Positions 1 to 52,800 of a stretch of DNA of 64,000 bases are shown one piece after another (the first letter of the stretch is position 1; each line of letters starts with the position of its first letter). Below the pieces are notes generated by a model, which saw only the letters and a program-made list of their open reading frames with translations, made no database searches and was not told the origin of the DNA. The stretch is from the NCBI GenBank assembly GCA_002633005.1, contig NMRA01000392.1:1-64000 (forward strand). Direction: 5' to 3'. The translations under genes and the position numbers were made by a program. This DNA is from Phoronis australis (lineage: Eukaryota; Animalia; Phoronida).

Positions 1-1067
1 TAGGGTAAGGGTTAGTATTATGGTTAGACTTTGGGGGAGTGGTTAGGCTCAGGGTCAAAGTCAGGGTCAGGGTCATTTTCAGGGTCGGAGTCAGTCCCAG
101 GTTCAGGGTCATGGGTTAGGGTGAAGGTTATAGTGAGGGTTAGGGTGAGGGTTAGGTTGAGGGTTAGGGTGAGGGTTAGGTTGAGGGTTAGGTGAGGGTG
201 AGGGTGATTGTTATGGTTAGTGTTTTATTGTTAGGGTTAGGGATATGGTTAGGGTTAGGGTTACTGCTATGGTCAGGGTTAGGACTAGTGTTAGGGTAAG
301 GGTTAGTGTTATGGTTAGTGTAAGGGTTAGGATTAAGGTTATGGTTAGGGTTAGGTTTACGGTTGGGACTAGGGCTAGGGTTAATATTAGGGCTAGGGCT
401 AGGGTTAGGGCTAGGGCTAGGGCTAGGGCTAGGGTTAGGAGTATGGTTATTTTTAGCGTTAGGGTTAGGGTTAGGCTAGGGTTAGGCTTAGGTTTAGAGT
501 TAGGGTTGATTTTACTGTTATTGTTAGGGATATGGTTACGGTTAGGGTGAGGGCTAGGGTCAGGGTTAGGGCTAGGGTTAGGGTCAGGGTTAGGATTAGG
601 GTTAGGGAAAGGGTTAGGGTTAGGAGAATGGTTATTGTTAGCGTTAGGGTTAGGTTAGGGTTAGGTTTAGGTTGAGAGTTAGGCTTAATTTTACTGTTAT
701 TGTTAGGGATATGGTTAGGGTTAGGGTGAGGGCTAGAGTCAGGGTTAGGGCTAGGGTTAAGGTAAGGTTAGGGTTAGGGTTAGCTATTAGGTTTAGGCTT
801 AGGGTTAGTGTTAGGGTTGAGGCTAGGGCTAGGACTAATGTTTGGGCTAGGGCTAGGGCTACGTCTAGGGTTAGGGATAGGGCTAAGTCTAGGGATAGGG
901 CTAGGTTTAAGGCTATGGATAGGGCTAGGGCTAGGGCTAGGGTTAGGGCTAGCGTTAGGGTTAGGGTTAGGGCTAGCGCTATTGTTAGGGCTAGAGCTAG
1001 GGCTAGGGTCAGGGCTAGGGCTAAGGCGATAGGCTAGGGTTAGGTCTAGGGTTAGGGTAAAAGCTAG
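1..1067 (+). repeat. Degenerate telomeric-type array (TTAGGG with CTAGGG, TCAGGG, TGAGGG variants), part 1
   Basis: Continuous hexamer repeats NNAGGG read directly from the sequence; the array probably continues left of the window. Confidence 0.95.
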
Positions 1068-1304
1068 AAAAATAATTGCAGGCGGTCTGATACACGTTGT
1101 ATCAGACGTGCGCAGGCCTCGCATGTGGGCCCATTGCACTGATCACCTGGAAATATTTTTATGCTTTATTAATATATGGTTAAGACCGAGGTGAGGAGCT
1201 AGAAACCTGGCTCAAGGGTTTAGCAGTGTGACCTGGTGGGACTCGAACCCACGACCTCGAGTAAAGAAAGCGGGCACTTATCAACCAGGCCACACTGCCT
1301 CCTC
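1068..1304 (-). mobile_element. tRNA-derived SINE, copy 1, inserted in the telomeric-type array
   Basis: Minus strand begins GAGGAGGCAGTGTGGCCTGGTTGATAAG (A-box-like) and has GGTTCGAGTCC (B box); homologous copies at 32444 and 49384; imperfect TSD agggtaaaagctag/aggttaagggctag. Confidence 0.9.
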
Positions 1305-1524
1305 AGGTTAAGGGCTAGGGCTAGGGCTAGGGCTAGGTGTAAGGCTAGGTCTAGGGCTAGTGTTAGGGCTAGGGCTAGGGCTAGGTTTAAGGCTAGGGCT
1401 AGGGCTAGGGCTAGGGCTAGGGCTAGGGCTANCTAGGGCTAGGGCTAGGGTTAATGCTAGGGTTAGGGTTATGGTTAGGGTTAAGGTTAGGTTTAGGGTT
1501 AGGGTAAGGGTTAGGGTTAGGGCT
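1305..1524 (+). repeat. Degenerate telomeric-type array part 2 (CTAGGG-rich, then TTAGGG)
   Basis: Direct hexamer repeats between the SINE and the LINE; one N at 1432. Confidence 0.95.
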
Positions 1525-4404
1525 AAAAAAACAGTGCAGGTTGTCATTTGCGGTGCATCAGACGTGCGCAGGCCTCATGGTTGGGCCCTTTGCACAAAAC
1601 ACCTGAGCAAAGGCACGAGACCCCAATGATGGCTCCTCGTGAAGAATGTTTTCAAGTCTGCCAGTATCCTTTAGGAGTACGGACAGACGTTTCCATTTGT
1701 TGCCATGCACTATATGTTGTAGGCGTTTAACAGTGCCATGCAGCAGGTTGCTCCTTAGCCTATAAAAAACTGGGCAAGACTCTACTCAGATTCTACCTCA
1801 GTACCACACTCAGGACACACAGGGCTCCCCATATGCCCAGAAATGTGTCTGTGTCGGGCTAGGTTGCAGTGGCCCGTCAAAATTTGCATGACGTGTCTTA
1901 TACCCAATCTATCTAGACTCAGAAGGCTTTTTGAACCTTTTGGTTCGATCACGTTGGGAAAATTCTCCTTGGTCTCTCTGCAGGAGTTAAATGATGCCCA
2001 CTGGGCTGCTGACTGGGTATGTTGCGTATACTCACCCTGCAACATCCGTAAGATACCGGGATAGCAGGTTCAGGCACAAAATTCAGAACGCTTGCTCCTA
2101 TCTTTGCGAGTCTGTTTGCATTCTCATTGCCATCAATTCCCACATGGGCCCTGACCCAGCGTATATTGACGGTTCTTTCAATTGCAAGCTTGTTAAGCTC
2201 ATTAATACAAGCATTAACACAACGAGAGTTGACCCTTAGCTTCTTTAGGGCTTTTATTGCTGCCTGGCTATCTGAAAAGATGGTAATTGGCCGATTGCCA
2301 AGTTTAGTGTTATATTGTTGTGCCAGTTGACCAGCTCTAATAATTGCAGTGATCTCAGCCTGAAACACCGTGGCAAGATTGCCTAACGATACCCAGTTTT
2401 CTGCATCTGCAACAGGAAGGCTTGGAAAGTAGACCCCAGCACCTGTCTGGCCATTTTCCAGTTTAGAGCCGTCCTTATAACAAACCACCTCATTCTTGTG
2501 TTCTGCGGTAGGCCATCCATCGCCAATTTCCGTGAAGAAATTGTTTGTATGATTTAAAGGTGTGACCTGGACATCACTAGGCATGTTCCATAGTTGCCCA
2601 GTCTTGGCCATTAGCTTATTGCAAACATTCATGTGGCTTCTGTGTGCAACGGAGTCAGGGATGTTAGTTTTCACCCACTGACCATTATATTTGAGACGAA
2701 GTGCGGCACATGCAGCTTCACCCTCAAGGTACATGTTCAGTGGTGGTAGACCGATTAGCATTTCTAGGGCTGCAGAAGGCGTTCCTGGAAAAGCAGACTG
2801 AGGTTATGCACAGACAAGCTAGACGTTGCAGCTGCCTAAGTTTGTTGATAATTGTAATCTGTTTTAATGCCGTTACCCATACCGACGAAGCATAGGACAT
2901 TATAGGTCGGATAACAGCAGTATAAATCCAGAAAATATTCTTGGGGACATTCCCCAAGTTTTACCCACCGCACGACTACATCTCACCAATGCAGATTTGG
3001 CTTTTGAGATTTTTTCTGTAATATGCGGGGTCCAGGAAAAACGATGGTGTAAAATGACACCTAAGTAAGTCGCCTTGTCTACAAGATCAAGATGTTTACC
3101 ATTCAGCGTTAAAGGCCGCATTCAGCATTTAAGCTTTCAAGTGAACATAATCACCTTTGTTTTGCTACCACTAATTTCTAAGCCAACTGACTTTGCCCAT
3201 GTGGCTGTTGTATTCAGTGCTCTTTGAGCAAGATGGCGACATGTGTCAGGATCGATGCTAGACACACTGAGAACAATATCATCTGCATAGGCTTGAACAT
3301 ACAAGCTTGGACCCATGTCAGTAGATAATTGTCGAAGCAAACCATCCATAATCATGTTAAAGAGGGTGAGTGAGGCAGCGCCACCCTGAGGTGTTCCTCT
3401 GGTTATGCGAACCGGCACTCTCACATTGTCTAGACAAGCAGTCACAGATTGACTTCCAAGCATGTTAATGATCCACCTGGTAAGACACCTATTAAGGTGG
3501 TCCAGTGCAATTCGGATCGCATCATGCTTAATATTGCTGAAAGCACCAACAAGATCAATGAAGGCACAGAAGGCAAATTGTTTATTAAAAACAGCCCTTT
3601 CCAGTCTAGCAACCAGATGATGTAGAGCGGTCTCCTTAGAGAAGCCAGGCCTATAAGCATACTGATTGTTCTGAAGTTTGTTCTGTATTCCTTGTTTATC
3701 AAGATGCCACAGAATGAGCCTTTCCAGTCCTTTGAGAAGAAAGGATGTTAAGGTTATAGGCCTAAATGATTCAGCCAAAAGGTGTGAGTTCTTCCCTGAT
3801 TTAGGAATGAAGACTACCCTAGCTTCAGTCCAAGTCTTAGGGATATAACCTAGTCTAAGACTGGCTGTTAAAGTTGCTGTGAGTATTTGGAATAGTGGTA
3901 TCCCAGCTTCTTGCAACATTATAGGATATGTCATGTCTAGTCCTGGGGACTTCCATGGTTTAAAAGACTTTAGAGCTAACCCCACGAGATGTGGTGTGGC
4001 TATGTTTTCAACAGCAGCATAAGCTAATGGTTCACACTCCTCGGAGTCCGTCACTTTTGAATATTGGTTCGACAGGTTTACACTATCAGGATAGTGCTTA
4101 CCCATCATGACTTCGAGTGTTTCCTCGGTGGAGCGTGTGCATGAGCCATCCTCTTTTTGAATGACCTCGAGTCTGGAGGAGTGATTCTTCTTAAGCAATT
4201 GCATTAGCCTTGTAGATGCAGAGAGGCTGTTAGTTTGCTACAGAAATTCCTCCAGTAATTGCGCTTTGCTTTGCGTGTGGCAGACTTAAACATACGATAG
4301 GCAAGATGATATGCATCCCAACACTCGCAGTGTCAGTCCGAATTGCCGCTCTGTGAGATTTACGTGCCTTACCCCGAAGTGCTGCCAGTTCTCTGGTCCA
4401 CCAA
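1525..4404 (-). mobile_element. 5'-truncated non-LTR retrotransposon (LOA/R1 group; RT + RNase H + C-terminal Cys motif) inserted in the telomeric-type array
   Basis: RT motifs KSPGLD, FRPITLTSFLLKGLERL, AFIDLVGAF, GTPQGG, QAYADD; RNase H motifs DGSK, TVFQAEITAI, FSDSQAA, WVRAHVGIDGNENANRLAK; ILTGHC...CPEC; putative TSD agggttagggcta/agggttaggacta; no endonuclease domain present. Confidence 0.9.
1782..4204 (-). pseudogene. Disrupted ORF2 (reverse transcriptase 3137-4204, RNase H about 1949-2761)
   Basis: One protein split over ORFs 3137-4204, 2900-3121, 2724-2957, 1949-2761 and 1782-2045, implying several frameshifts or stops. Confidence 0.88.
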
Positions 4405-5467
4405 AGGGTTAGGACTAGGGTTAGGGTTAGGTCTAGGGTTAGGACTAGGGTTAGGGTTAGGGTTAGGTCTAGGGTTAGGCTTAGGTTTAGGGTTAGGGTT
4501 AGTGTTAGGGTTAGGTTTAGAGTTAGGGTTAGCGTTAGGGTTTGGATTAGAGCTAAGTTTAGCGTTAAGTTTAGAGTAAGTGTTAGGGTTAAGGTTAGGG
4601 TTAGGGATAGGGTTAGGGTTAGAGTTTGGGGGTGGGGTTAGGGTTATTATTGGGATTTAGATTAGGGTTATGATTAGGGCTAGGGATAGGGCTAGGGCTA
4701 GGGCTAGGGCTAGGGATGGGACTAGGGCTGGGGCTGGGGCTGGGTCTGGGGCTGGGGCTGGGCCTGGGACTGGTAGGGTTAGGTTAGAGTAAGGGATGGG
4801 CTTATGGTTTAGTTTGGTGGTAGGGCTATTGCTATAATTGTTTTTAAGGTTAGGGTTAGGGTTAGGGCTAGGGTTTTGGTAAGGGTTATGGTTAGGGATA
4901 GGGTTAAGTTTGGGGGTAGGGTTAGTGTTATTGTAATTGTTAGGCTTAGGGTTTAGTTTCGGGGTAAGGATATGGCTATCATTGTGGTTAAGGTTATGGT
5001 TAGGGTGAGGGCTAGGGTTAGGGTTAGGGTTAGGCTTAGTTTTAGGGTTAGGGATAGGCTTATTGTTAGTGTTAGGGTTGGGGTTTGGGTTGAGTTTGGG
5101 GTTGGTGTTGAGGTTAGGGTTAGGGTTTGGCTTAGTCTTAGGGTTAGGGTTTGGCTTAGTCTTAGGTTAGGCTTAGGTTTAGGGTTAGATTTAGGGTTAG
5201 GTTTAGGGTAAGGGTTATTATTTAGATTTAGGGTGAGGTTTAGGCTTAGGGTTAGGGTTAATATTAGGCTTAGACTTAGGGTTAGGGTTAGGGTTAGGGT
5301 TAGGGTTAGGGTTAGGTTTAGGGTTAGATTTAGGGTTAGGTTTAGGGTAAGGGTTATTATTTAGATTAAGGGTGAGGTTTAGGCTTAGGGTTAGGGTTAA
5401 TGTTAAGCTTAGACTTAGGGTTAGGGTTAGGGTTAGGCTAATGGTTACGTTTATAGGTTTAGGGTTA
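4405..5467 (+). repeat. Degenerate telomeric-type array part 3
   Basis: TTAGGG and variants, including a near-perfect run at about 5276-5315; ends abruptly into unique sequence. Confidence 0.95.
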
Positions 5468-12740: not shown

Positions 12741-12980
12741 TGCTAGATGTAGCGGGAGAGCGCAGAAGCGGAAATAAGATCGTTCACGACTTTAGGGCAC
12801 CCACGACTTAACGACCTCCCACAGTATACTATCGTCACCACACAATATCTGTTCCAAAATGAAGAAATTTGGCAATTACTGGATTCTCTAACGTTGCATC
12901 TCTAACTTGCAACTTTGTCTCCACATCAAATTGACAAACATGAGTGCTATTTGCTCGTTTTGGCCTTGCCATACTGTTAA

Positions 12981-13879
12981 ATGCGAAGGCAACCTTTTTT
13001 CATGTCATTTTAGCAAAAATTAGGTTCGTTGCTTATCCCAGACATATTTTCAACTTAATTACAGCTTTTCGTAATTTAACTAAATATTCGTTCTCTACTC
13101 CGGAAGTGACGTTTTGGGGGGCAAGCATTTCCTGCCAATTTATTTTCATATAGTCTGACGATGAGAGCTGTCACGTCAGTCCTTGATCTACCTCCGTTGT
13201 GATAAGGTCGGTCGTCGTTTGCTTTTGTTTACGACTCAGTCAACATGCCACACTGTTGCTGAGTACCGGGATGTACTCATTATGGCCCAAAGCCTGTAAG
13301 CAGCCGTGCTGCGATGTTGAGTAGTGGAAGTGAATACAGGTCCAGTCAGTGAACAGTACAGTTCGTCGTTCAATGAACAGATGGGTGAGCCAAACTTTTA
13401 TAAGTTTATTGTGGACTTTTTTAAAGTATTGGAGCTATTTAGAAGGTGCCAGGTGCCTGGCGAGGGAGTCACATGGCGGGGTGTAAGCAGTCTGTGTGCT
13501 CAGGTCACTATCCAGTGGGAGTGTGTCGCGGTACACTCGGGCAAATGGGACAGTTGTTCCTCTGTCTGTGAGACAATAATGAGTACATCCCGGTACGCAG
13601 CAACAGTGTGGCATGTTGACTGACTCGCAAACAATAGCAAACGACGACCGAACTTATCACAACCGAGATAGAACAATGACTGACTCGGCAGCTCTCACGG
13701 TCAGATTATATGAAAAGAAATTGGCGCGAAATGCTTGCCTCCCAAAACGTCACTTCCGGAGTAGAGAACGAATAATTAATTAAATTACAAAAAGCTGTAA
13801 TTAAGTGGAAAATTTGTCTGGGATAACCAACGAACCTTATTTTTGCTAAAAAGGACATGAAAAAGGGTTGCCTTCGCCT
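12981..13879. mobile_element. Kolobok-type family A, palindromic non-autonomous derivative
   Basis: TTAA TSD; about 300-bp inverted arms; homologous to the element at 27430-29110. Confidence 0.85.
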
Positions 13880-14422
13880 TTAAGGGAATACTCGTGGTAT
13901 CGATCAAAGCTAAGTAGACATCAGCTTCAGACATACACTGTGGGAGCCACACCTAGCAAACCGATGTTAATGCCTTCGTGGTTCCTTGTGTTGGCTATTT
14001 TAATATCAACATAGATCTGTTGATACGTCGGCCAAGTAGGGTTTGTATAGGGCTGTTTACATTTCGACCACCTGAGTGTCATATATATAATAGAGATATT
14101 TATTTTCATACTTAAAGTCCACTTGCACCATCTAACAAGATTATAGAAGTATAAGCAACTTACAAAAACTTTATCTGAGACTTTCTGCATGTAGAAGACG
14201 ATAAAAGATACATTGCATCAAACTTCGTTACATGTACATATGGGGAGAACAAAAGGAAACCTCGAAAACAATGAGAGGGTTACACATAATTTTATTCATA
14301 CATACATATGCAAAATTGATTAAATACACGACACTTGTCGTTATCAACAGTCTTTATTCCGTTCCGTTAGTATCCCCGGAACAAAGTTCTACACTCATCA
14401 GAACATTGTTGAAGCAACTGAC

Positions 14423-20700: not shown

Positions 20701-20851
20701 GGGGGGGGGGGGGGGNNGGGGCAAGTAGTTCTGGGGAAACTTGTAGTGTGTACACGTTTAAGCGCTTAACCAGTGTTACGAGGTCGCTGTAACAGAGCAA
20801 AAATAAATACACACATTTGTGCCACAAACATGTAAAAGAGAATAAACTTAC

Positions 20852-21031
20852 ATGACAGAGTGACGAATGTCATTCCCCAAAATATACTCCATATCCAGCC
20901 GACTATAATTATGAATAAAATGAGCTGCAAAAACGATGACACCAAGTTGAGACCAAACGCTCGCAGTCGGTTGTCCCCTAGCCTCGTCGTCACTCCAGGA
21001 CAAAACACGAGTGGTGCACAGAATAAAGTTC
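20852..21031 (-). CDS. stum: stum/Spec3-family protein, exon 2 (GTLFCAPLVFCPG...LQLILFIIIVGWIWSIFWGMTFVTLS)
   Basis: Spec3/stum signature GWIWSIxWG; acceptor ttatttttag, donor gtaagt; 180 bp, phase 1-1. Confidence 0.9.
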
Positions 21032-22739
21032 CTAAAAATAAATCACAAGGGACTTAGATTACGGTCTGTTATTACATGCAGCATGTTGCCTTTAAATATC
21101 CCATTCACCGGTTGATCCTCTCGACTTTCACTTTACGAAAATATATGAGCTGACAATGACCAGTTACTTAGATATTTTAGACATGTTTACAGGTACTCGT
21201 AACACTAAAAATCTATTCCAATTGATGGCAAGCAACTGGCTGGAAGTGCCGTTTTTGATTCATGTTTGTGAAAACGTTCACAACCGGCGTTCATGAATAA
21301 CATTCGTATTTAGGCATTATTATTTACAATCCAACACGAATCAACTTAAAACAATGATCACAAAATGCCACTCATGAGAGTGAGAAGGTGAAGATTTCTT
21401 GAGCGCTTTGAGTGTTTACCTCCAACTAATGAAATCTCCGTTGCTAGCAACTGCCTTCACTTTTCAGTCATCCAATACCGGGGCAACCGTTAGCTTTCTC
21501 AAGCCGTATCTAATCAACTTTTGGAATATTTCATTTACCATAAGTTGAATTTTGAACCTTGAAGCCAAATTTTATACGAACGAAATTCACTACCTCTGAA
21601 GTGTGGGACACAGTGAGCAAGTTCTGAAAATGTCAGCCGATCAGAGAAAGCTGCGCTCGCTCTCTTTTCCTAATCTGATAACTGTGCTCTCAGAGGCCCA
21701 AACGCCTGTGTCCCAGCTTCGCTACATCACACACTTTGCGATTTGACTTGAACAATGACGCCGCTTTCGCAGTTACTTTCATTATAGGTGGCGCTGTGTC
21801 AGAGGGTAGGAGTGACGCATTGTGTGACCAACAGGTGACGTGGATGACGGATTCCACATATCACAGTCCGCAAATATCCAAGGTGCAACTTGCCGACAAT
21901 ATCAAAATTCAAATTTCCAGAACAATTATTTTCTGTTTCATTCTGATAGAAATCTACTAAAATAGTTCAAAATAACAATATAATTAATTATAATATGCTA
22001 AATTGACCAAAACGTTTTCAAACTAAATAACGTTCCGCTCTAAAGCGTCCTTATATATAGCGGGCGGTCAAGCTTGCCGTAACTAACTTTTGCTTTTACC
22101 GTAAAGCTTCTTAAAGAAGCCGGCCGTTTATTTTACTTGGGTAGACCATACCTCAGTTTGAGACCAGCGTGTTTCAGAAATCTAACATTTATTAAGTAGC
22201 CCAAGTCTGCGATGACAAGGAGAAATTTCCGCGAACCTCCAGTACCCCCCGCCTTCTATTGGAAAATTAGTTTTTATTTACAGTTTCATGATTCTTCCAG
22301 TTTCCCACTTTTCGATCCCATCTGGATAAATTTGCTGTTAGAGCGGACCAGTATTGGTATTACGGCCGAAGTAGGCACTGTTGGTATTGTTCTTGAAGAT
22401 GGACTTAATGAATTACCTTTAACCTGCTGCTTCACTAAAACAACTTAAGTCAGCTGTGCCCGTTTTTTATGAGTTTGCTACAAATCGTCAGTTGTCGCCG
22501 TCGTCTGCCACACATTGGCCGAAATCAAGACCGATGTCTTTTCCAGTAAAATACGCTTAATCTCTGTCATTTATCGTCTGAGATTTCTGGATTTAAAGCG
22601 TTAGACTGCGACCGCAGCCTTGGTTTCGATTTTGCGCTGAGATTAGCACGGGTAATTCGACGTTGATTATGATTATTCCATGTTCATATACATTCAAATA
22701 CGTAACCAATATTATTACAAATCTTCACCAGTTTACATT

Positions 22740-25120
22740 AGTCATTAACTGAGACCACGTAATACCCGAGGCCAAGAATTAACTTGTAGACTGTGAATGT
22801 CTGCGTGGACACGATGCTCATGTATTCCGAATACACTAAGGATGTTGCACAGTATTTGAATCGTTTGTTCAACTGTTCGTTCCCAACACGTTTTTAAGAA
22901 CTTGTCTTACGAAACCGTAAAGCACCCAGAGTGGAAATTAACAACATTGAAGTTCCTCAACCAGATCAACCGTACTTGCGAGGATATCTATTCCTTATGT
23001 AGACAAACTTTCTGAACAATTACGATCTGTGTTCAGGACATTTAAAGGAGTATGCCACCCAAAAAACAACCCATTTTGTATCAATTTAGATGGAGTCAAG
23101 TTCTATTCGATAACGGCACGTTCGGTTGCGTTACCTGACACCTGACGGCAGACGGAGGTATTGAAATTATCCAATGACGTAATTGGTTTCACAGGCAGTC
23201 TTCTCAGCAGTTCACAACACGGGTTACTGGTGTCAGGTTATCGCTTGAATTCATCGTTTAACACCAATAAATAATCGAACTTTGATGTAAAACCCTTAAA
23301 AATACACCGAGTTCTTATAAAAACGTGTTGTTTAATTTCGCTGTTACGGATTTATTTTTATTTGGACACACCGTAGCCTACAAAGTTCGGCAGGCCAACT
23401 TACCAAGATCCATAGCAGGAGTTTAAGGTCTGTTCGAAGATAAATTCGAAGTATTCTTCCGTGAAATAGAGACAGGAGAACCCAGAACTGTGCTGTTTAA
23501 ACTTATGATTTTTGGAGTTCTAAACACACAAAACGCTTGTTATCCCGGCCGACCAGGGCTCAGAACTCGATCAGTCCCGTCGCGGCCGGACTGACTCGTT
23601 ATCCCGGCCAGTGGCTCGGAACCCGATCAGGCCCGTCGCGGCCGCCGGGACTGGCACGAACATAAACCAGCTTGAGTTGGAAACTAAACCGACAGAAAAA
23701 CTATAATAGTGAGCCAAAGAAATAATGGGAATTAGCCACGAAACTGAAAATCTAGGCCTACTTACTAATTGTCGGTTGCCGCAACGTCGGGTTCCCCTTC
23801 CAGACCGTCGAGGCAAAGGTTGTACAGTAATAATGATTTGAATAATGTATTTAGTGTATTTCTGAATAAAGATTCCCCTAACATGTGACCATAGATATGA
23901 AATCGGGTAGTTGTTTCACAACAGCTTTCTGTCAGCAAACACTGAATTAGCATGCGCTCACACGGCCTCGGTGTCCGGTCATTGCCGGCATCAAAACCCG
24001 GTAATTACCGCAGTGGTTTATTCAATACTAGCTTCTCAACATTTGCACTCACAAATACTGCAAAGGCATTACAAATTGTATCTAATGAGACAGACTTTGT
24101 TTCAGGTTTATATAAGCATTAGTTAGGATGAGAATAATTCATTTTGAAACAGAACGCAGAATAATAAACGTCTACATGGCATCTCGCCCGGCGCCAATCA
24201 CGACTTCGTTAGTCAAGAGCTCATCCGACGAAGACTTCACGGATAGTATCGGTAGGTTTCACAGCTATCAATTCGAGCCGAAATACACTATCAAGAAATA
24301 CTAGAGAGGCGCCGTGAACATGCACAGGCAACGGGACGTATGAATAGTTCTTTGGTAAGCCGGAATTCGTCAGAGAAATCACTGTCGACGAAATGCCGGC
24401 CACAGACACGGAGATGTTTCACGGCCTCATACTTCCTATATTATTAGCGTACTTTTCATTCTTCACTACCACGAGCCACTTCCTAAGCATTTCAGGCTCT
24501 CGAAGAAATCGGAAAAACGATATACCCGCTTCCTTTGCAGCTTAATAGTTCGGACAAGCGGGAACCAGTGCACCGCGATATAGCGGCATTCACTCTGCAG
24601 ACGAACCACTGACGTCGCTGCGTCGTTTCTCACCTTCCTCACAGGTTAACGCGACACCTCTCGGCAAGGTGAGGTCGACCGTATAAGAGGCGATGTATAT
24701 ATAGACCGATTAAGACGGTAAAAAAGACAAATTAAATCGGGTGGCATTCTCCTTTAATATAACCACGTCACCCAAGATAGGTAACTATAAAATATTTGAC
24801 CACGTCTTGCAAACCGTTTGGCACTTTGAGACAAAAACTCGTGGACCCTAAGAACAAACTACCTGAGGGAAAGATAGTTAGTGTGGTCTATGGATTACAG
24901 TGTGGAGAGTGCCCTGAAACTGGTAGGTGAAACTAAGCAGTCCTTGAAACCACGGTTGTCCCAACATCGTCGGCCTAACTACGGTGACACATATGACTGC
25001 CGTGTATACCCACTGTCAGGGATCTGGTCACAGCTTTGGCCTTTACAATGTACTAATCCTTGACAAGGAGTTAAGTTGAACGGGGAGTCAACGAGCGTAC
25101 ATGTATATATAATCATACAA
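22740..25120 (+). mobile_element. Degenerate Penelope-like retroelement fragment (RT C-terminus + GIY-YIG endonuclease), split by a Kolobok insertion
   Basis: ISIPYVDKLSEQLRSVF before 23045; KPFGTLRQKLVDPKNK..VVYGLQCGEC..VGETKQSLKPRLSQHRR after 24754; outer limits approximate. Confidence 0.75.
23046..24753 (-). mobile_element. Kolobok-type family B non-autonomous element with THAP remnant
   Basis: TTAA TSD; TIR aggagtatgccaccc / gggtggcattctcct; decayed THAP on the minus strand from ATG at 24589 (SFFRF..EPEMLRKWL..RVCGRHF). Confidence 0.82.
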
Positions 25121-27684
25121 GCACCCAAGGGGAGGGGGTGCTCGGGCGAACTGGACAAAAAAGGTCCACCTAAGAGAAACAAAAACTCCGAAAAGTAGAA
25201 AACTAGACAAAAGTCCGCTAAAAAGACAGGAACTATTAAAATTCGACGAATGCAAAATTCCTTGATGAAGGTAACCCCTGAATTTTAGTAAAAGGTCCAC
25301 ACTCTCAAAAATTTGAGCGCCCCATTTTTAAGCTGGGTGCGCTCATGTATAAGAAATATTTGAAAATCCATTTTTGAACTTGGGACAGAATTCTGACTAA
25401 AGTTTCCCGCCGATTTTCTCAACTCCGACGAATCAACCAGAGGTCGCACAAGCTTGAAAAAGCCAGCAGACGCTGGCGAAACATTGCCCGTTCATCTCAC
25501 GTAAGTTCAGTAACGACTCATAATTTTCTTCGTATTATACTCGTACTGAATGAGTCATAATATACATCGATCTTGTAAGTTCTGGTTATTTATTTTGAAA
25601 GAGACGAAGTCAAAGTGAAATAGCATAATTTGGGACTTTGTTTTGATATTTAAACTGGTTGGCGTTAAAATTCATTTTGTACAAATTCTTAAAAAGAATA
25701 AAGCCGACGGAGTATCTTTAGCTGTCTATGAGTAGTAAGATTAATGACAATTACTTTGGTTTTTGGCCTGAATTATCTCAAAGATCAAAACATCCCATAA
25801 CTAGAGTTACTCCTAAATGTTGACCAATATTCAAAATTCATGTTTCCACATGGCTCAACAAACTGTTGCTACAAAAGAAAATGATTTATAGATAACTATT
25901 TTCCCAACTCTTCAGAATTAGCCGGGAGTGTGTTGCAACACGTTCTGTGGTTCAAATGTTAGTTGTGACAGCTTCCACTGTTTGAAGCCAAAGAACATCA
26001 GTGGCAAATCTAGGATATCGCAGGGGGTTCCACATTTTGTCGGTAGACAGCAGCGCAAATCGTGACTGTAGAGGTGCGTAGCGCAGGACGGGAAGGGCGA
26101 AGGTGGGGAAGGTTTTTTTCCTCTTCATTCCACAGTGCACCCATACACTATCGATAATTTATGGTGGAGCAAACCATGGAAACGGAGTGGTAGTGCGCAG
26201 CGCCACAACCGGTCGCCAGGTATAGCACGATCATACAGACCGGTAGCGAAATTAATTTCCTTAGTTACCCTTATAATTGCTCCTGGACGCTTGAAATGGG
26301 GTCTGAGCCTCACCCCCACCCCCTCTCACGCACACACAAACTAAAACTCCCACAAATTGTCAAATCTTGTTTCGGCTGCATAATAATAATTACCAGTTTT
26401 AATTAATAAACTCAATATTTCCTCACGCTTTTGCTGCTTTATTATTATATTTATGCAAGAAGCTGACCCCTGCCTCCCCCCTCTTAAATCCGCCTATGAA
26501 CATATGTTGAATCAGTATCAGGTTACCTTCAGCCACTTAAGTGTCGTCAAATGAAATCTCAATATAAGTCGGCAGGGGAGCAGGACCGCAAGAATCGCGA
26601 GAGGTCGGAGGTGCCGTGAGTTAGTGTCCAGAGTTTGACCAAGTTGAATTTTATGCGTACCCCGCAGCCCGCAGTAATTTGCACTCTTGAAGACTCTGTG
26701 ATGTGCACTGATGTGATATGTGTTTGCTTTTCTACTTTTTACTTCTACGTGCATCACAATTTCTGCATTTCATACTTTTGTTAAACAATTCCCTCATTTT
26801 CCCTGCTTTTTTGAAACTGCTTGAAAGACTGTAAAGTCACCACTAAGCATAAATATCAGGTATATGCTGTGGTAAATGTAATTCAGAGTAGTTTCATATT
26901 CTGCCACCAGATGACAGTACAAGGAAAAGTTTACATTGGAGCAGTACATGTACTTTGTACACCTATTGATGAGATGGAAATTTTCAAACTAAAATTACCA
27001 GGTCAAAATACTGACGACATATATTTTCAAAGCTTCTACAATCAGTTCCCACTGACTAGAATGTATGTTTAACGGACTGAAATCTCAGATTGCAGAACAT
27101 AATGGTTTTGATATTTATTATTGAGAAGCGTTCATCAAGAGATCGATTATGTGACAACAAAGAAAAGAAAATCACTAGCAGTAATTGTAACCTAATAACA
27201 TCATCCGGCTATTAGTTGGGCAACTCGTTTCATTATCATCCAAATTCGTCGTCAATGATATTGACTCAGCTGAGCCGACACATTTGAATTGTTAGGCCAT
27301 CTACTACCATAGGTTAATTAAGAAATTGAGAACAACTGAAAAACTGAATGTGTTTGTGTTTTAATAAGTATCCTAGCAATAGTAAAACCAGGAGGTCCTT
27401 TTTATCAAAGGTCGCACGCCTTGTCTTAAAGGCGAAGGCAACCTTTTTCCATGTCATTTTGAGCTAAAATAAGGTTGGTTGGTTATCCTAGACATATTTT
27501 CCACTTAATTACAGCTTTTCGTAATTTTATTAATTACTCGTCCGCTACTCCGGAAGTGACGTTTTAGGAGGCAAGCATTTCGCGCCAATTTCTTTTCATA
27601 TAGTCTGACTGTGAGAGATGCCGAGTCAGTCATTGTTCTACCTCGGTTGTGTTGAGTTCCGTCGTCATTTGCTAGTCAGTCAAC

Positions 27685-28692
27685 ATGCCACACTGTTGCT
27701 GCATACCAGGATGTACTAATTATCGGTTCACGCGCGCTTTGGGAGTACCTTTGCATCGCTTTCCGATGGATGACACACTTCGCCGTACTTGGCTCGTTCG
27801 TGTGAAGAACCCAGCGTTACCCGTCCACGCAACGTACAAAGCAGTGGAGAATTACCGTGTGTATGGCAAGCACTTTCTGCCGTCCGATTACGAAAGGGAT
27901 TTGTACGCTGAACTGATGAAGGTCCCTGCGAAACAACGTCTGAAGAAGGATGCCATTCCGTCTGTGTTGATTCCCGGCAGTGCCCCGTCGCCACCCCCGA
28001 GAAGTGCGTTTTTGAAGCGAGAAGCCTCGCGAGCTGTGGCCAGTACAGTGACTGGAGCCAGTGGAGGCACTTCATCTACTGTCACCCGTGCCTCCGAACG
28101 TACCCCAGAGCGTGCAATTCCTGGAACCAGTAGTGATTCGCCCTGTGCTGTTTTCTCCAGCCCAGAGCCTCTAAGCAGCCCTGCAGCGATATTGAGTAGT
28201 GGGAGTGATTACAGGCTCAGTTCGACACCCAGTGAAGAGGACAGTTCGTCGTCCAGTGAACAGATCGGTGAGCCAAACTTTGATAAGTTTATTGTGGACT
28301 TGTCTAAAGTGTTGGAGCTATTTAGAAGGTGCCAGGTGTGTGGCGAGGGAGTCACACGACACGATGTAAGCAGTTTGGGTGCTCAGGTCACCATCCAGTG
28401 GGAGTGTGTCGCGGGACACTCTGGCAAGTGGGACAGTTGTTCCTCTGTCCGTGGTATGCCGGAGGTCCACTTAACCGTGTCCAGTAGTGGCTTGGCCTCG
28501 TCGAACTCTGAACAGCACAAGCATTCCATTGAGGTAGGCATAACAACGCACACAGTGCATTTGCACCAAGATGTGTCACCACGTCTGTCCTCAGTAGCCG
28601 CCTCGTTTCTCTCAACAGCTGCCTGTGCCTGTGCGTACTCTGCCTCGTTATACTCGGGCTCAAACATGTACCCACTCACTGAATGTCTGTGA
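27685..28692 (+). CDS. THAP-domain protein (N-terminal part of a Kolobok-type transposase; DDE core deleted)
   Basis: MPHCCCIPGC..LHRFP..RRTWL..RVYGKHF..LKKDAIPSV THAP signature (Y at the third Cys position); later CQVC..CVAGH..W motif; the C-terminal ~70 aa are antisense read-through. Confidence 0.75.
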   Translation: MPHCCCIPGCTNYRFTRALGVPLHRFPMDDTLRRTWLVRVKNPALPVHATYKAVENYRVYGKHFLPSDYERDLYAELMKVPAKQRLKKDAIPSVLIPGSAPSPPPRSAFLKREASRAVASTVTGASGGTSSTVTRASERTPERAIPGTSSDSPCAVFSSPEPLSSPAAILSSGSDYRLSSTPSEEDSSSSSEQIGEPNFDKFIVDLSKVLELFRRCQVCGEGVTRHDVSSLGAQVTIQWECVAGHSGKWDSCSSVRGMPEVHLTVSSSGLASSNSEQHKHSIEVGITTHTVHLHQDVSPRLSSVAASFLSTAACACAYSASLYSGSNMYPLTECL

Positions 28693-28778
28693 AAAAATTC
28701 CTCGTCACCACTGCTGTGAACAAGGTCTCCGTCACTCACACTACTGTCACTGTGATACGGGTCACCGACTCCAGCCAT
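28383..28778 (-). CDS. Truncated P2X7-ballast/nanor-like (KolX-type) Cys-rich protein
   Basis: YMFEPE...WCKCTVCVVMPTSMECLCCSE motif; ATG at 28778; truncated at the deletion junction near 28480. Confidence 0.72.
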   Translation of the reverse strand: MAGVGDPYHSDSSVSDGDLVHSSGDEEFFHRHSVSGYMFEPEYNEAEYAQAQAAVERNEAATEDRRGDTSWCKCTVCVVMPTSMECLCCSEFDEAKPLLDTVKWTSGIPRTEEQLSHLPECPATHSHWMVT

Positions 28779-29269
28779 TTTCAGCTTACAACACACTAAA
28801 CAATCCCTAAATCCAACGTAGTTGAATTCTCTACTAACCTATCTTGCCGCAGAATACTCGCCGATGGAAAGTGGTGGCGACAATTGTTGAAAACGGCACA
28901 AACCAAAAGTAGAATAGAACAGATTGGCACGGTAAAGTCAACGCAAAACCAAGTGGCGGGAAACGCTTGCCTCCTAAAACGTCACTTCCGGAGTAGCGGA
29001 CGAGTAATTTATAAAATTACGAAAAGCTGTAATTAGGTGGAAAATATGTCTAGGATAACCAACCAACCTTATTTTAGCTCAAATGACATGGAAAAAGGTT
29101 GCCTTCGCCTTTAACAATCGCAACTTTTATCTTGCACACAGTTCATGAAGTCCCATGCAGCGCCATCTTTGAGACACATTCTTTTGGTTCATATTTTATC
29201 TAGAGTTGGAACCCTTCGATTTGGTTTTTTAATACGGCGATTTAGCGTCCCTAATCTTGAACCTTTGGT

Positions 29270-32443: not shown

Positions 32444-32685
32444 TTAAAAAAATAACTGCAGGTGGTCTGATACTCGTTGTACCAGACGTGTGCAGGCCGC
32501 GCATGTGGGTCCATTGCAGTGATCACCTGGAACCATTTCTATGGTTTATTAACATATAACTAAAACCGAGCTGAGGTGCTAGAAATCTGTCTGAAGGGTT
32601 GGGCAGTGTGACCCAGTGGGTCTCGAACCCACGACCTCGAGTAAAGAAAGCGGGCACCTATCACACTAAGCCACACTGCCTCATC
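32444..32685 (-). mobile_element. tRNA-derived SINE, copy 2
   Basis: Full-length homolog of 1068-1304; perfect 13-bp TSD aagatgtaccata. Confidence 0.92.
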
Positions 32686-38745: not shown

Positions 38746-39000
38746 AAGTGGATTCATCTGACGTTTAGGAGTTGAACAAAATTATATTGGTAAACGTTGC
38801 ACAACTATGTAGTTCAGCCCGGAAAAACCACAAAAATCGCCCGGAGATCTTGTCATTTGCAGTAACGTGGACAACGATTCCATCATTTGTACACCTTCTT
38901 CGCACTTACACGTTGTATGTGTCAAAAGAGCTACGCAAATTCATTGCCTATTCCGAGATTTTGTCCTTCTTCAGTCCCGTTCTGAAGTTGCTGCCATTAA

Positions 39001-40985
39001 AGAGTCAGAATGCTACCCAAAAAAACAACCTATTTTGTATCAATTTAGATCGAGTAGTTCCACTCGATAACAGCAAGTTCAGTTGTTTTGCCTGACACCT
39101 AACGGCAGACGGGGGTGTTCAAATATTGACCGGTTCGAACGCAGTCTGTTGTTCGCAACACGCTTACTGGTGTCAAGTTATCGCTTGAATTCACCGTTTT
39201 ACACCAAGAAATCATCAAAATTCGATATAAACCCCATACAAATACATCGAGTTCTTGAACAAACGTGTTGTTTATTTTACTGTTACGGATTTATAGGTAT
39301 TTGAACGTACCCGTAGCCTACAGAGTTCGGGAGTACATGACGACGTTCTGTCGTTCAGCAAACTTTTCAGACGTGAGGGGTGCTGAGCGTGCGACAACAT
39401 CTGGCTCCTTTGTTAACTGCCCAGCATAGTCTTTTGTCCTGTATGATAACAATCACTCAGGCTTCAAAGGGTTACTGAAACCTGGTAGAACGAGGCCTAG
39501 TTCCAACACCGGGTAGAGGTTTTCATCAACAATGAATAAACAAGGTAACCGAAGTGTCGTGTTTTCACCGTTTGTTAATAAGCATTTTATCGGCATTTGT
39601 ACTCGTTCCATGAAAGATTTATCTTCGATTGAACTCCAGCAAACATTATTGCACCAAGAAGTCGAGAGGAACTCTCGAGCTGGTTTATTCAGTAAAGCCG
39701 CTCATTTTGGAAGTATTGACATGCGGCTTTTGAGGATTACTCGTTCTGGATTTACCCAAAAATGTATACGCATCACTGAGGAACGGATACCAGCGGCCCG
39801 TTAAATTAATAAAGTCGCACGCTCGGCGTAGCTGACTCTATAAGCGTGAACGCCAGCGTTTTTATGAAAATAACATTTCTCGAATTCGGTGGGTATACCA
39901 GTAGGCCTACTGAATCTTTTGCAATTGTACATACTAGTGATTCATTTTTCTTAACTCTTCAAAATCTTGTTTGTGTACCATTTTGCACAAACTCAAACGA
40001 TCGACTTCGTTTCATTACAGGAGATTTTTGGTACTAGTTGTGAGAACTAGCAGTCAAAATTGCAGATTATGTGGTTGCACGCTATTACCGAACGCGTATG
40101 AACACAGTCAAACCCAGTGCGCTCGTACGTAATCCGTTTGGACAGAATAGATTGTCTTAACTTCTGTTGTAGTTGGGCCATATTGGTGATTCAAAAACTA
40201 AACAGTATCAGCATTTGACAAGGGTTCAGAAATGCTATTGGTTACGTTCAAATATGTTATAAATTAACTTTCATTTTTAGCAGCACAGCCCAGTCAGGCT
40301 AGATACGATCTGAGTGGAGATTCGGCAATCATCGAACAAAAGAGCAGAGCCGGTCCTCCAACAGTAAATGCCAGAATGGGAGTTAATCAGACGTGTAAGA
40401 TGCTGGCTATAGGGGTCATCTTACCAACTTGTTGTTGGGCTATAGAATCGAACAAGTTGGCAGCAACGGGAAAACGCCGTAATGAGGCCAATTTACCATG
40501 GTCGATATCGCGGGGTTTGGGTCTATTTCAGTTGGTGATAAATTCAGTTCATTCTTCAGTGAAATACAGACGGGGGAACATAGCTGTGTGCTGTAGGCTA
40601 CTCTTAAACTTGCGATTTTTTTAATTCTAAACACACAGAACGCTTGTTACTCCCCACCAGTGGCTCGGGACCCGATCAGCAGGCCCGTCGCGGCCGCCGG
40701 GACTGGATATCACGAACATAAACCAGCTTAAGTTGGAAACTAAACCTCCAGTCACAAAACGAATATAATAGTGATCCAAAGAAATAATGCCTAGGTTAAT
40801 TAGCCACGAAACTGAAAATCTACTTACTTGTCGGGTGCCCCGAAGTCAGATTCCCCTTCTACAGAAACGTCAGGGCAACGCCGGTTGTACAGTAACAATG
40901 ATTTGAATCATGTATTTGTATACCTAAATAAAGATTCCCCTAACATGTGACCATAGCTTATAAAATCGAGTTATTGTTTCACAAC
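39001..40985. mobile_element. Kolobok-type family B partial copy interrupted by a ~1.15-kb TIR element (about 39331-40485)
   Basis: 39001-39330 and 40485-40985 match consecutive parts of 23046-23920; the insert has imperfect TIR catgacgacgtt..aactt / aagtt..aacgccgtaatg. Confidence 0.7.
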
Positions 40986-48040: not shown

Positions 48041-48851
48041 CTGCAAAAGAAAATGCCAGCAGACACTACATTTAATCAGTTTAAATAAACATTTTCAAAT
48101 CACGTTTAAATTATATTTTTAACTGTACAATGAAGTGGGGTACATTTTAATTTCTTACTATGGCCAATTTGGAAGGTGCAAAATCAATGTTCACTGTTTC
48201 ATTGCTTCTGCAGCTCTCAAGGCTTAGGTTAACACCAAGTTGCAGGTTCATAACGTATATCTTATGAGTACCACTCCAAATTCTCCCGTTTCATTCTATA
48301 ACTCAATACGTACCACCAGCGAATGAAAACAGGATGCAGACGACAACATACATGCACTGGTGGCACGTATTTCACCGATCTTGCCCGACTTTTGCCGAGC
48401 TATTCTGTCTGTTTACTACCTGTTGTAATTTAAGCACGTTTGATGTGTGCTGACTGCGGTGGTGGCAAATGTTCTGATTTCATGAAATTAACGGTCCACA
48501 ATTCTGAATCCAAGGTAATGAATTTAGGAAAAATGTTAATAATTTAAAATTTGGAAGTCAACACAAGCTTTGAACAGAATTTTGGGGTAATTATTGTCTG
48601 ACTTTGAAACTCGCAGCGGCGACTTTGAGGCAACTTTAGATTTTTCAAGGTCGCACTGACAGCCTGAAGGTCTCCAAATTCAGTGCTGACCTGACGAAGA
48701 TGACATTTTAGTCTTTAGTATTATAAACTGGAAATCGGTGGTAGAAAAAAACACAGGCATGCTGTTGTGAGTTACATCAACATTTTCCTTTGAAAACTGT
48801 GGTTGGTGTCCCTTATAACATCCTAGATCGACCACTGTACCCATTCCTTAC

Positions 48852-49124
48852 CAGTATTCATAATAACTAAAGCCTTGAGCAACACAAACTCCTCCCTGGT
48901 CACGTCGAGACTGGTCAGATTGTTGGCAAGTTTAACGGACAGATCACACAGCTCTGAGTTGGTGCCAGTTCTTCTGAGCTCCTCCTCGGTCAATGCAAAG
49001 TCACTGGCGAATACAAGCCTGCCACAGAAGGGTTTGGACCGGTAGCACATATTGAGACACAGTACGTCTAACCAGCCAGCCTTGAGAAGTGACATCTGGT
49101 CAGATAGGCTTATGCCGATAAAAC
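48852..49124 (-). CDS. ERR: Estrogen-related receptor, LBD exon
   Basis: GFIGISLSDQMSLLKAGWLDVL..EEFVLLKALVIMN; canonical AG/GT, phase 1-1. Confidence 0.93.
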
Positions 49125-49383
49125 CTGAAAAGTAACAAAAAGGTCAAATTTATCAATAACAAAGAAGTCAGTTTGACCAAAAACAGAATGTCTGGAGCCC
49201 AGACACCACGGCAACTTTACTGACAGAGGTTAAATTTATACTGTTGTAGATATTCATCTGTCTAAGAGAAATCTATTAGCCATATTTTATGAAAATCCTC
49301 CAAGGAACTCCGAAGATGCCTGAGGTTTGGGAGATACAGCAGCGAATACCCAGATGGAGATAACCGCAATATACAATCATATA

Positions 49384-49613
49384 TAAATAGCCATTGCAGG
49401 TGGTCTGGTATGTTGACGTGAGCAGGCCGCTCAGGTGGGCCCATTGCACTGATCATCTGGAACTATTTTCAGGTTTCATTAAAGTTAAAACTGATCTGAG
49501 GAGTTAGAGACTTGACTCAAGGTCTAGCAGTGTGCTCCAATAGGAGTCGAATCACAAGCTTGAGTAAATGAAGTGGACATCACGTATCCCACTCAAGGCC
49601 ACACTGCCTCCTC
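49384..49613 (-). mobile_element. tRNA-derived SINE, copy 3 (more diverged), in an ERR intron
   Basis: Homologous to copies 1 and 2; TSD atacaatcatata/atgcaatcatata. Confidence 0.82.
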
Positions 49614-49832
49614 ATGCAATCATATACATGGCTGCGTAAAAACAAAAAAGAGTCCAAAACAACTCATACGCGAGTGAAGAATCTTTATTTGGTTGTATTT
49701 GCTTGAGTTATGCACCAGATTTTAATACAGTCACAAACACACTCGCATGCACTGCAACAGACAAAACCGAATGTGCCTGCTTTGCCCACACTTTGTGCAA
49801 AACACATTTAAACAGGAGACTGCAGTACAAAC

Positions 49833-49991
49833 CGTCTAGTTGCTTTGCCCATTCTATGGTGTCCACCAGCTCCCGGTCGGCCAAGTCACTGAGAACCGAC
49901 ATAAACTTGAGTGTGTTCAGCGGTTGATGATCAGGATTAGCTTTGAGTGGCTTGGGTTCAATGGCCATCAGCCGTGTAAGGAGATTACCCT
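49833..49991 (-). CDS. ERR: Estrogen-related receptor, LBD exon (helices 1-3)
   Basis: LLTRLMAIEP..LSDLADRELVDTIEWAKQLD; acceptor tttcag, donor gtttgt. Confidence 0.92.
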
Positions 49992-51938: not shown

Positions 51939-52052
51939 CTTCCAGGCAAATCTTTTTTGGGATGGGAGGTGGACTTTCTGCCGATGTGGTGGAGCCGAGG
52001 CTTAGTCTCTTGTACTTCTGCCGACCGCCCCTCACCCGATCCATGCGCACAC
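51939..52052 (-). CDS. ERR: Estrogen-related receptor, CTE/hinge exon
   Basis: GVRMDRVRGGRQKYKR ERR signature; acceptor tttcag, donor gtattg. Confidence 0.93.
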
Positions 52053-52534
52053 CTGAAATGAACAGAACAGGGATAAATGCTCACTCAGCTAACTTGACAG
52101 GCAAGGAACAGTGTGAAGTTGGTCATGTCCCAAATTTAAAACTGGACACACCGTGGACACACCGAAATTTGATTCTTGGTATTAAAGCTAGTCAGAATAA
52201 ATCAAGCTCATAACTGTAATTTAGCAAATGGAAAATTAATTTGGTTCTTATACAGTGATGAGTAAGTCGCACTTAACAATCAGAATGGAATTCTTTATCA
52301 ACAAAAGATTAATGAGTAAGTCATTCAAATCCCCATCAGTGATCACTTAATTTGCAGACAAAAGGTGAGGTGTCCATAGCTTCCAAATGAAGACAATAAT
52401 TTACAACACAACTTTCAGGAACCAATTGAAACACATTTGAACATTTTGCATGACTTAGCCTCATGGTCTTCACATTGACAGCACCTGCCCACTTTTTAGG
52501 TTTATTTGAACCTATAAAGTCAGCATGAACTTAC

Positions 52535-52651
52535 CTTCTCGCAGCATGCCCATGTTCAAGCACTTCTGAAAGCGACATGCTTGGCAAGACTTGCGTCGTC
52601 GCTTAGTTATTTCACATTGACCATTGCCAGGACATGTGTATTCTATGTTTC
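52535..52651 (-). CDS. ERR: Estrogen-related receptor, second zinc-finger exon
   Basis: [39 protein letters not shown]; acceptor ttgcag, donor gtaagt; the first zinc-finger exon was not found in the window. Confidence 0.95.
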
Positions 52652-52800
52652 CTGCAATTAGACAAGTTTTGTAATTAAACCCTATAGCAACATAAATCAA
52701 ATCTTTCACTATCAAACTCAAACCACATAACTTGGACATTTGTCATGGTTACACAATTCATTATCACAGGGTTTGGCAAGAAAGTTGAAGGATTGATGGC

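What the first reader, a model, noticed from the sequence alone, without database searches (positions are those of the whole stretch)
1068..1612. SINE-LINE partner pair: a tRNA-headed SINE carries the 3' end of an RNase H-bearing LOA/R1-group LINE
Seen: the SINE 3' tail (CAGGTGATCAGTGCAATGGGCCCACATGCGAGGCCTGCGCACGTCTGAT..CCTGCA) matches the 3' terminus of the adjacent LINE (CAGGTGTTTTGTGCAAAGGGCCCAACCATGAGGCCTGCGCACGTCTGAT..CCTGCA). Three SINE copies (1068, 32444, 49384) and two LINE ends (1525, 29270) share it, and TSDs are 13-14 bp where visible. Known: stringent SINE-LINE pairs share 3' ends, mainly documented for CR1, L2, RTE and I/Nimb partners. Inference: this SINE is mobilised by a LOA/R1-group enzyme, a pairing I do not recall being described, and in a non-insect host.
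Basis: partly seen in the sequence, partly recalled or inferred. Interest (0 to 1): 0.8.

Follow-up and report, generated by a model that had tools for sequence, protein, structure and literature searches.

The report
SINE riding a LOA retrotransposon tail
A short, abundant jumping repeat in this (likely non-insect) animal ends in the same 80-base tail as a LOA-like retrotransposon, a tail predicted to fold into a three-armed RNA shape that distant LOA-like elements also carry, so it likely borrows that element's copying enzyme, a partner type not listed in the papers searched.

Summary
Observation confirmed. Three copies of a 230-242 nt tRNA-headed SINE share their last ~80 nt with two LINE ends (76% over 89 columns, E 3e-10). 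Public reads show both are dispersed multi-copy families whose coding strand ends in a T-run. The LINE is a 5'-truncated RT-RNase H-zinc knuckle element. Its named relatives are Lian-Aa1-type and other insect elements, so it is LOA or LOA's sister lineage; no R1, Tad1 or I reference was available for the tree. Its main arm recurs with compensatory changes at the 3' end of distant LOA-like elements, and SINE-LINE differences fall mainly in loops (p 0.001). This fixes the direction (LINE to SINE) and supports stringent mobilisation, which is inferred, not shown. Novelty is smaller than claimed: R1-group partners are in print (fungal Tad1 pairs, butterfly Flambeau/R1), and LOA is known outside insects. 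A LOA partner, the conserved fold and the T-ended LINE were not found in ten searches; Repbase, Dfam and SINEBase could not be checked. Interest 0.48.

The parts
1068..1304 (-). SINE copy 1, full length (237 nt), inside a degenerate TTAGGG array
1228..1304 (-). tRNA-like head of SINE1: A box 1292-1281, B box 1249-1239
   Evidence: Rfam tRNA clan E 0.08; boxes and relaxed ARAGORN
1150..1227 (-). SINE body of unknown origin, no match to LINE1
1079..1149 (-). LINE-derived tail of SINE1, predicted three-way junction (closing helix P0, arm P1 with a 3x2 internal loop, hairpin P2)
   Evidence: fold z -3.98; pair table
1103..1144 (-). P1 motif in SINE1, found by a model built only from distant LOA-like 3' ends
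   Evidence: rank 3 in window, E 0.09
1068..1072 (-). terminal T-run, the only run of 4 or more T on the SINE1 sense strand (possible Pol III terminator and priming end)
1525..4404 (-). LINE copy 1: 5'-truncated LOA-like element with RT (3137-4237), RNase H (1949-2803), C-terminal zinc-knuckle region (1717-2003), 3' UTR and 7-nt T-run; broken by stops and frameshifts
1525..1605 (-). LINE1 tail shared with the SINE; P1 motif at 1559-1600; this copy likely lost 7 nt of P2/P0
29271..29774 (-). LINE copy 2: 3' fragment of a sister LOA-like family; P2 intact, P1 with longer loop and mismatches
32444..32685 (-). SINE copy 2 with exact 13-bp TSD
49384..49613 (-). SINE copy 3, more diverged (166 of 213 identical to SINE1), 13-bp TSD with 1 mismatch, between exons of an ERR-like gene

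Best explanation
This is a dispersed tRNA-headed SINE family whose last ~80 nt are homologous to the 3' end of a LOA-like LINE, and it is likely copied by that LINE lineage's ORF2 protein through a predicted three-way-junction RNA signal. Shown: shared tail, multi-copy families with sharp ends, TSDs, T-run ends, and the same motif at the 3' end of distant LOA-like elements. Predicted: the fold. Inferred steps: Pol III transcribes the SINE from its A and B boxes and stops in the terminal T-run; ORF2p binds the junction, nicks DNA with a staggered cut of about 13 bp, and primes reverse transcription at the U-rich 3' end. The working partner may be LINE1's family or a sister LOA-like family of the same genome.
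For: Tail similarity is far above chance and starts exactly at the 5' strand of the closing helix. SINE1 and LINE1 differ at 5 of 46 paired and 11 of 23 unpaired positions (Fisher p 0.001); LINE2 11 of 48 against 11 of 23 (p 0.03); decayed SINE copies show no such skew (SINE2 p 0.73, SINE3 p 0.10). At three stem positions broken in SINE2 (32491, 32510, 32519) 90% or more of the contig depth in run X1 carries the pairing letter. The P1 arm recurs downstream of ORF2 in distant relatives: 7 of 9 pairs change on both sides, 95% of cells pair against at most 41% for slid controls. A model built from 10 foreign loci finds 4 held-out 3' ends at E below 0.001 and ranks LINE1 and SINE1 second and third in the window. 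9 of 14 foreign ends fold unconstrained into the same three-way junction. Both families end in a T-run, whereas 14 of 14 foreign ends carry 3-5 nt tandem repeats. Both families are present in runs of three organism labels. Known: L2 ORF2p binds a 3' stem-loop (PMC4176376, abstract); SART1 (R1 clade) moves a reporter carrying its 3' UTR in trans (PMC7265360, passages).
Against: No mobilisation or binding test. The loops differ between SINE and LINE1, and in L2 elements the loop gives specificity (PMC4176376, abstract), so LINE1's own family may not be the driver. The foreign-built model is weak in the window: E 0.018 and 0.09, an unexplained site at 13944-13986 scores higher, and SINE2, SINE3 and LINE2 are missed. 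The foreign motif set was picked because it fitted (12 of 25 ends) and holds close kin. Fold z-scores are mostly modest: -0.3 to -4.0; LINE1 alone -0.8, SINE3 +1.2. LINE2 has only a short T-run. No RNA start or end peak was seen. No intact LINE copy is in the window and no genome is held.
Confidence: 0.8

Rival explanations
1. The tail is a LOA relic, and the SINE is now moved by an unrelated LINE, for example the CR1/L2-type element also present in the window.
For: SINE and LINE1 tails are only 76% alike. In run X1, 750 contigs lay on the 0.45-kb SINE stretch against 289 on the 2.9-kb LINE stretch. Another RT clade is present at 52797-53423.
Against: Stems are kept while loops drift, family letters restore pairing, and the T-run end is shared with the LOA-like family but not with its foreign relatives.
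Confidence: 0.1
2. The LINE is not LOA proper but a sister lineage or another R1/I-group clade; the mechanism stands and only the clade name changes.
For: The tree had no R1, Tad1, I, Nimb or Outcast reference, and its only outgroup is long and 33% filled. An AU test does not reject the three named insect proteins forming a clade without the window RT (p 0.24). Names in the protein collection are transferred labels.
Against: The best tree joins the window RT with the Lian-aa1-named protein at 100/99 against the dipteran ones. RNase H plus C-terminal knuckle fit LOA (PMC2790886). The P1 motif is shared with loci that group with the named insect proteins.
Confidence: 0.12
3. The pair is a telomere-repeat-targeting system like SART/TRAS, since SINE1 and LINE1 lie 220 bp apart in one TTAGGG-like array in the same orientation.
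For: 2 of 5 window copies sit in the array; the nearest full-length relative has an endonuclease closest to TRAS1 and R1Bm among solved structures.
Against: 3 of 5 window copies lie in unique DNA, and the flanks seen in reads are unrelated and AT-rich (SINE loose-end agreement 0.43-0.50; no TTAGGG among the LINE loose ends shown).
Confidence: 0.04
4. The direction is reversed or accidental: the LINE picked up a SINE end, or the match comes from nested insertion.
For: SINE1 and LINE1 are neighbours.
Against: Distant LOA-like elements carry the same motif after ORF2. A second LINE family has the tail, and reads show further LINE variants that diverge just upstream of it (loose ends at 1607-1608).
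Confidence: 0.02

Closest known systems
Stringent SINE/LINE pairs of the UnaSINE1/UnaL2 and ZfL2 type (PMC3747384 Table 1 read whole; PMC4176376 abstract)
   Same: tRNA head, LINE-derived 3' tail with stem-loop structure, TSDs, inferred trans-mobilisation.
   Different: Partner is LOA-like with RNase H; the tail is predicted to be a three-way junction; both ends are T-runs, whereas UnaL2 ends in TGTAA repeats. None of the pairs in that table has an R1 or LOA partner.
Fungal Mg-SINE/MGR583 and SINE2-1_BG/Tad1-24_BG (PMC3747384 Table 1)
   Same: tRNA SINE with the tail of a LINE from the R1/LOA/Tad1 group (grouping recalled; MGR583 as Tad1 clade is recalled).
   Different: Fungal Tad1 clade, not LOA; tails could not be compared here.
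Flambeau SINE of Dryas iulia (PMC6685494, passages)
   Same: SINE reported to have 3' similarity with R1 LINEs.
   Different: Insect, R1 label, data not shown in that paper, and the same passage also links it to Zenon tails.
LOA clade LINEs: LOA, TRIM, Bilbo, Lian, CiLOA (PMC2790886, passages)
   Same: RT followed by RNase H; a Lian-aa1-named protein among the named hits; dispersed, 5'-truncated copies.
   Different: Deep lineage whose nearest protein is 51% identical and unnamed; ends in a T-run where 14 of 14 related ends have short tandem repeats; carries a SINE.
T-tailed plant SINEs (p-SINE, Au, ZmSINE2; PMC3747384 section 4.1 passage and Table 2)
   Same: SINE ends in oligo(T); that review proposes unidentified partner LINEs recognising poly(U).
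   Different: Here a candidate partner that itself ends in a T-run is in view; hosts and LINE clades are unrelated.

Membership tests
tRNA-derived SINE (SINE2) | Short (under 700 bp) non-coding element with internal A and B boxes in a tRNA-like head | tested here: met
   230-242 nt; boxes in 3 of 3 copies; tRNA similarity weak; source tRNA not assigned
tRNA-derived SINE (SINE2) | Many dispersed copies with common ends and TSDs | tested here: met
   750 contigs laid in X1; unrelated flanks at 32446-32447 (39 contigs) and 32682 (41 contigs); clear TSDs at 2 of 3 window copies
tRNA-derived SINE (SINE2) | Transcription by RNA polymerase III | tested here: inconclusive
   RNA reads lie on the SINE with about 2-4 fold strand skew but no start or end peak; library strandedness unknown
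Stringent SINE/LINE pair | 3' end homologous to a LINE of the same genome | tested here: met
Stringent SINE/LINE pair | Shared 3' RNA structure kept while sequence drifts | tested here: met
   computational only:
Stringent SINE/LINE pair | Mobilisation in trans that depends on the tail | not testable with these tools
   needs a cell assay
LOA clade | ORF2 with APE endonuclease, RT and RNase H | tested here: met
   RT and RNase H in the window; the endonuclease is cut off in this copy and is inferred from the sister protein P0004
LOA clade | RT phylogeny inside Loa, apart from R1, Tad1, I, Nimb and Outcast | tested here: inconclusive
   groups with a Lian-aa1-named protein at 100/99, but no references of the neighbouring clades; AU p 0.24
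R1 clade (site-specific SART/TRAS/R1) | Insertion at one repeated target | tested here: not met
   dispersed, unrelated flanks
Conserved-domain SINE superfamilies (CORE, V, Deu, Meta, Nin) | Central domain homologous to the named consensus | not tested
   no reference sequences available; SINEBase supplements unreadable

The most novel reading that the evidence does not exclude
The first SINE served by a LOA-clade retrotransposon, which exposes an undescribed three-way-junction RNA signal conserved at the 3' end of LOA elements across animal phyla. In this lineage the LINE swapped its tandem-repeat end for oligo(T), so that Pol III transcripts, which end in U, are ready-made templates: the poly(U)-reading partner LINE that has been proposed for T-tailed SINEs but not identified.
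Probability: 0.4. Interest if true: 0.62.

Novelty: new variant of a known kind. Interest (0 to 1): 0.48.

Why it matters
SINE-LINE pairs mark which RNA feature a retrotransposon enzyme reads. This pair points to a compact 71-nt candidate recognition element for the LOA clade, for which I found no template-recognition study in the papers searched. It comes with natural compensatory changes that say which pairs to test. A T-ended LINE matched to a T-ended Pol III SINE would make the proposal of poly(U)-recognising partner LINEs directly testable. The general principle, a shared tail, is long established, which limits the surprise.

Tried and rejected
No whole genome is held, so no genome-wide consensus, copy count or dating. 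Viral contigs gave no relative of the RNase H or RT. A 16-nt tail word hit 35 viral loci, with alignments of 11-20 nt except one of 27 and one of 41, taken as chance. None of the 80 metagenome loci matches the SINE or the LINE tails by BLAST beyond 22 nt: the conservation is structural. Rfam has no family at gathering score in 5 of the motif-bearing loci. Two misaligned motif copies (L055, L059) were dropped before the model was built. A model of the whole junction was abandoned because P2 and P0 did not align in register. The host was not identified: the ligand-binding exon search gave nothing, the Atlas was uninformative, and the 41-residue DNA-binding exon gave annelid (88%), mollusc (80-85%) and vertebrate (78-85%) ERR names. 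The run search listed no RNA holder. Read depths are not copy numbers and are used only for their shape. Short tail words and the name Loa were absent from the supplement of PMC5786205; SINEBase supplements could not be read and may bear on whether the SINE is catalogued. Earlier scan findings held nothing on this pair.

Full report
Observation. SINE1 and LINE1 share 76.4% over 89 columns, E 3e-10 within the window. The local alignment score of 65 compares with a mean of 21 and a maximum of 30 in 200 dinucleotide shuffles of LINE1. The SINE's head and body have no counterpart in LINE1. TSDs are clear at SINE2 (13 bp exact) and SINE3 (13 bp, one mismatch), ambiguous at SINE1 and LINE1 because both sit in a degenerate TTAGGG array, and not found at LINE2. 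The head has A and B boxes in 3 of 3 copies but only weak tRNA scores.

Both are families. No genome is held, so I laid four of the ten listed public runs on LINE1 and on SINE2. On the SINE, 750 contigs of run X1 lay with sharp ends and unrelated flanks (39 contigs at 32446-32447, 41 at 32682, agreement 0.43-0.45). On the LINE, depth falls from about 1,080 in the 3' UTR just upstream of the shared tail to 24 at the 5' end, the gradient expected from 5' truncation; depths are not copy numbers. Pieces of both families also occur in runs labelled organisms B and C (SINE 11 and 6 contigs, LINE 19 and 7). Loose ends show A-runs on the plus strand at the LINE end in DNA and RNA runs, so the coding strand ends in T. 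A 7-nt insertion behind 1541, in 28 of 72 RNA reads and one deep contig, suggests LINE1 lost part of its last hairpin, which LINE2 still has (inference).

The LINE. LINE1 runs from 4404 to 1525, starts inside ORF2, and is broken by stops and frameshifts. It has RT and RNase H domains and a C-terminal zinc-knuckle region. All 120 listed homologues of 225 found carry RT, most with endonuclease and RNase H domains. The few informative names are a Lian-aa1-labelled beetle protein, Bactrocera, Musca and the rotifer Seison. In a tree of 33 rows (22 of the 120 proteins, 9 of the 80 loci, the window RT and the window's second RT as outgroup) the window RT joins the Lian-named group at 100/99. An AU test does not reject the three named insect proteins as a clade without it (p 0.24; the quick tree of 63 rows agrees). 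The endonuclease of its sister protein P0004 matches TRAS1 and R1Bm among solved structures. No R1, Tad1 or I reference was available, so the placement is LOA or its sister lineage.

The tail is predicted to be a conserved structure. SINE1's tail folds unconstrained into a three-way junction (z -3.98); single decayed copies fold less well (SINE2 -1.5, SINE3 +1.2, LINE1 -0.8, LINE2 -2.2). The homology begins at the first strand of the closing helix. Against that structure, SINE1 and LINE1 differ at 5 of 46 paired and 11 of 23 unpaired positions (p 0.001), LINE2 at 11 of 48 and 11 of 23 (p 0.03), while SINE2 and SINE3 show no significant skew. Of 80 related loci from metagenomes, 25 showed sequence past the ORF2 stop. 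A pattern written after seeing them matched 12 of 25, against 61 of 843 background windows; that count is partly circular. A covariance model from 10 of them (two dropped as misaligned) found 4 held-out 3' ends at E below 0.001, all on the coding strand downstream of the RT. In the window it ranked LINE1 second (E 0.018) and SINE1 third (E 0.09) behind an unexplained site, and missed SINE2, SINE3 and LINE2. Over 16 sequences, 7 of 9 pairs change on both sides and 95% of cells pair, against at most 41% for slid controls. The window's elements change two pairs of the outer helix on both sides relative to most others. 9 of 14 foreign ends fold into the full three-way junction, with mostly modest z-scores and several close kin among them. 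All 14 end in short tandem repeats, none in a T-run.

Mechanism. Shown: homology, family status, TSDs, T-run ends, motif conservation. Predicted: the fold. Inferred: Pol III transcription ending in the terminal T-run (the only such run in SINE1; SINE2 and SINE3 have an internal one), binding of the junction by the LOA-like ORF2 protein, and target-primed reverse transcription from the U-rich end. This follows the L2 model (PMC4176376, abstract seen) and the trans-mobilisation of 3' UTR reporters by SART1 (PMC7265360, passages). Because the motif is old in LOA-like LINEs, the SINE took it from the LINE. The loops differ between SINE and LINE1, and at least two further LINE variants diverge just upstream of the tail, so the working partner may be a sister family. 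Telomere targeting is unlikely: 3 of 5 copies and the read flanks are ordinary DNA.

Host. An ERR-like nuclear receptor gene spans part of the window. Its DNA-binding exon is closest to annelid and mollusc ERRs among named rows, with no insect among them. With the TTAGGG array this points to a non-insect bilaterian; the phylum is not established.

What is known. PMC3747384 (tables read whole, other passages) lists its SINE/LINE pairs with no R1 or LOA partner but two fungal ones, one named Tad1, and proposes unidentified poly(U)-reading LINEs for T-tailed SINEs. PMC6685494 (passages) reports Flambeau with 3' similarity to R1, data not shown. PMC11481361 (passages) gives CR1, CR1-Zenon, L2 and Nimb partners in bivalves. 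PMC5786205 (parts 1-2 of 5, passages, supplement searched) mentions LOA only for ribozymes. PMC2790886 (passages) reports LOA in Ciona and Daphnia. Also seen without a LOA pair: PMC8010984, PMC3531059 and PMC4758252 (passages), PMC3272025 (abstract), PMC5753468 and PMC10294476 (one passage each). Ten searches turned up no LOA-tailed SINE and no LOA 3' structure. The library lacks most subscription papers, and Repbase, Dfam and SINEBase were not searchable, so the SINE may already be catalogued.

Verdict. A real SINE-LINE pair of a known kind with three features not found in print here: a LOA-like partner, a 3' fold conserved across distant LOA-like elements, and T-run ends on both partners. 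New variant of a known kind; interest 0.48.

Noticed in passing
window 41-5437: Degenerate TTAGGG/CTAGGG array with the G-rich strand on plus and unique DNA to its right, so probably interstitial rather than a chromosome end; it hosts SINE1 and LINE1 in the same orientation.
   Followed up: partly
window 13944-13986 (-): Top window hit of the LOA 3' motif model (E 0.016), followed by another hairpin, with no LOA coding remnant upstream; chance or a very short old LOA end.
   Followed up: partly
window 48826-52655 (-): ERR-like nuclear receptor gene with a conserved DNA-binding exon and a strongly diverged ligand-binding domain; SINE3 lies between two of its exons.
   Followed up: partly
window 27426-29114 and 12977-13883: Element with long terminal inverted repeats carrying a THAP-domain ORF (27676-28692) and an opposing ORF; a shorter relative with the same arms lies at 12977-13883.
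   Followed up: no
window 52797-53822 (+): A second non-LTR RT of another clade (24-29% to the LOA-like proteins; CR1/L2-like by recalled motifs), used as outgroup.
   Followed up: partly
window 23028-24660 and 62289-64000, fragments at 38989-39333 and 40485-40985: A 1.7-kb repeat, 79% identical between its two long copies, not classified.
   Followed up: no
window 32560-32660, run X8: RNA reads on the SINE are skewed 2-4 fold to one strand, and one variant accounts for 214 identical loose ends, suggesting a single highly transcribed copy.
   Followed up: no
loci L005, L006, L008, L020, L027, L054, just after the 3' motif: These LOA-like elements end in ACCT or AACCT repeats; the five-letter unit is the complement of the insect telomere unit TTAGG (unit recalled).
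   Followed up: no
window 20769-21053 (-): Open frame with a hydrophobic stretch resembling stum-type membrane proteins (resemblance recalled, not tested).
   Followed up: no
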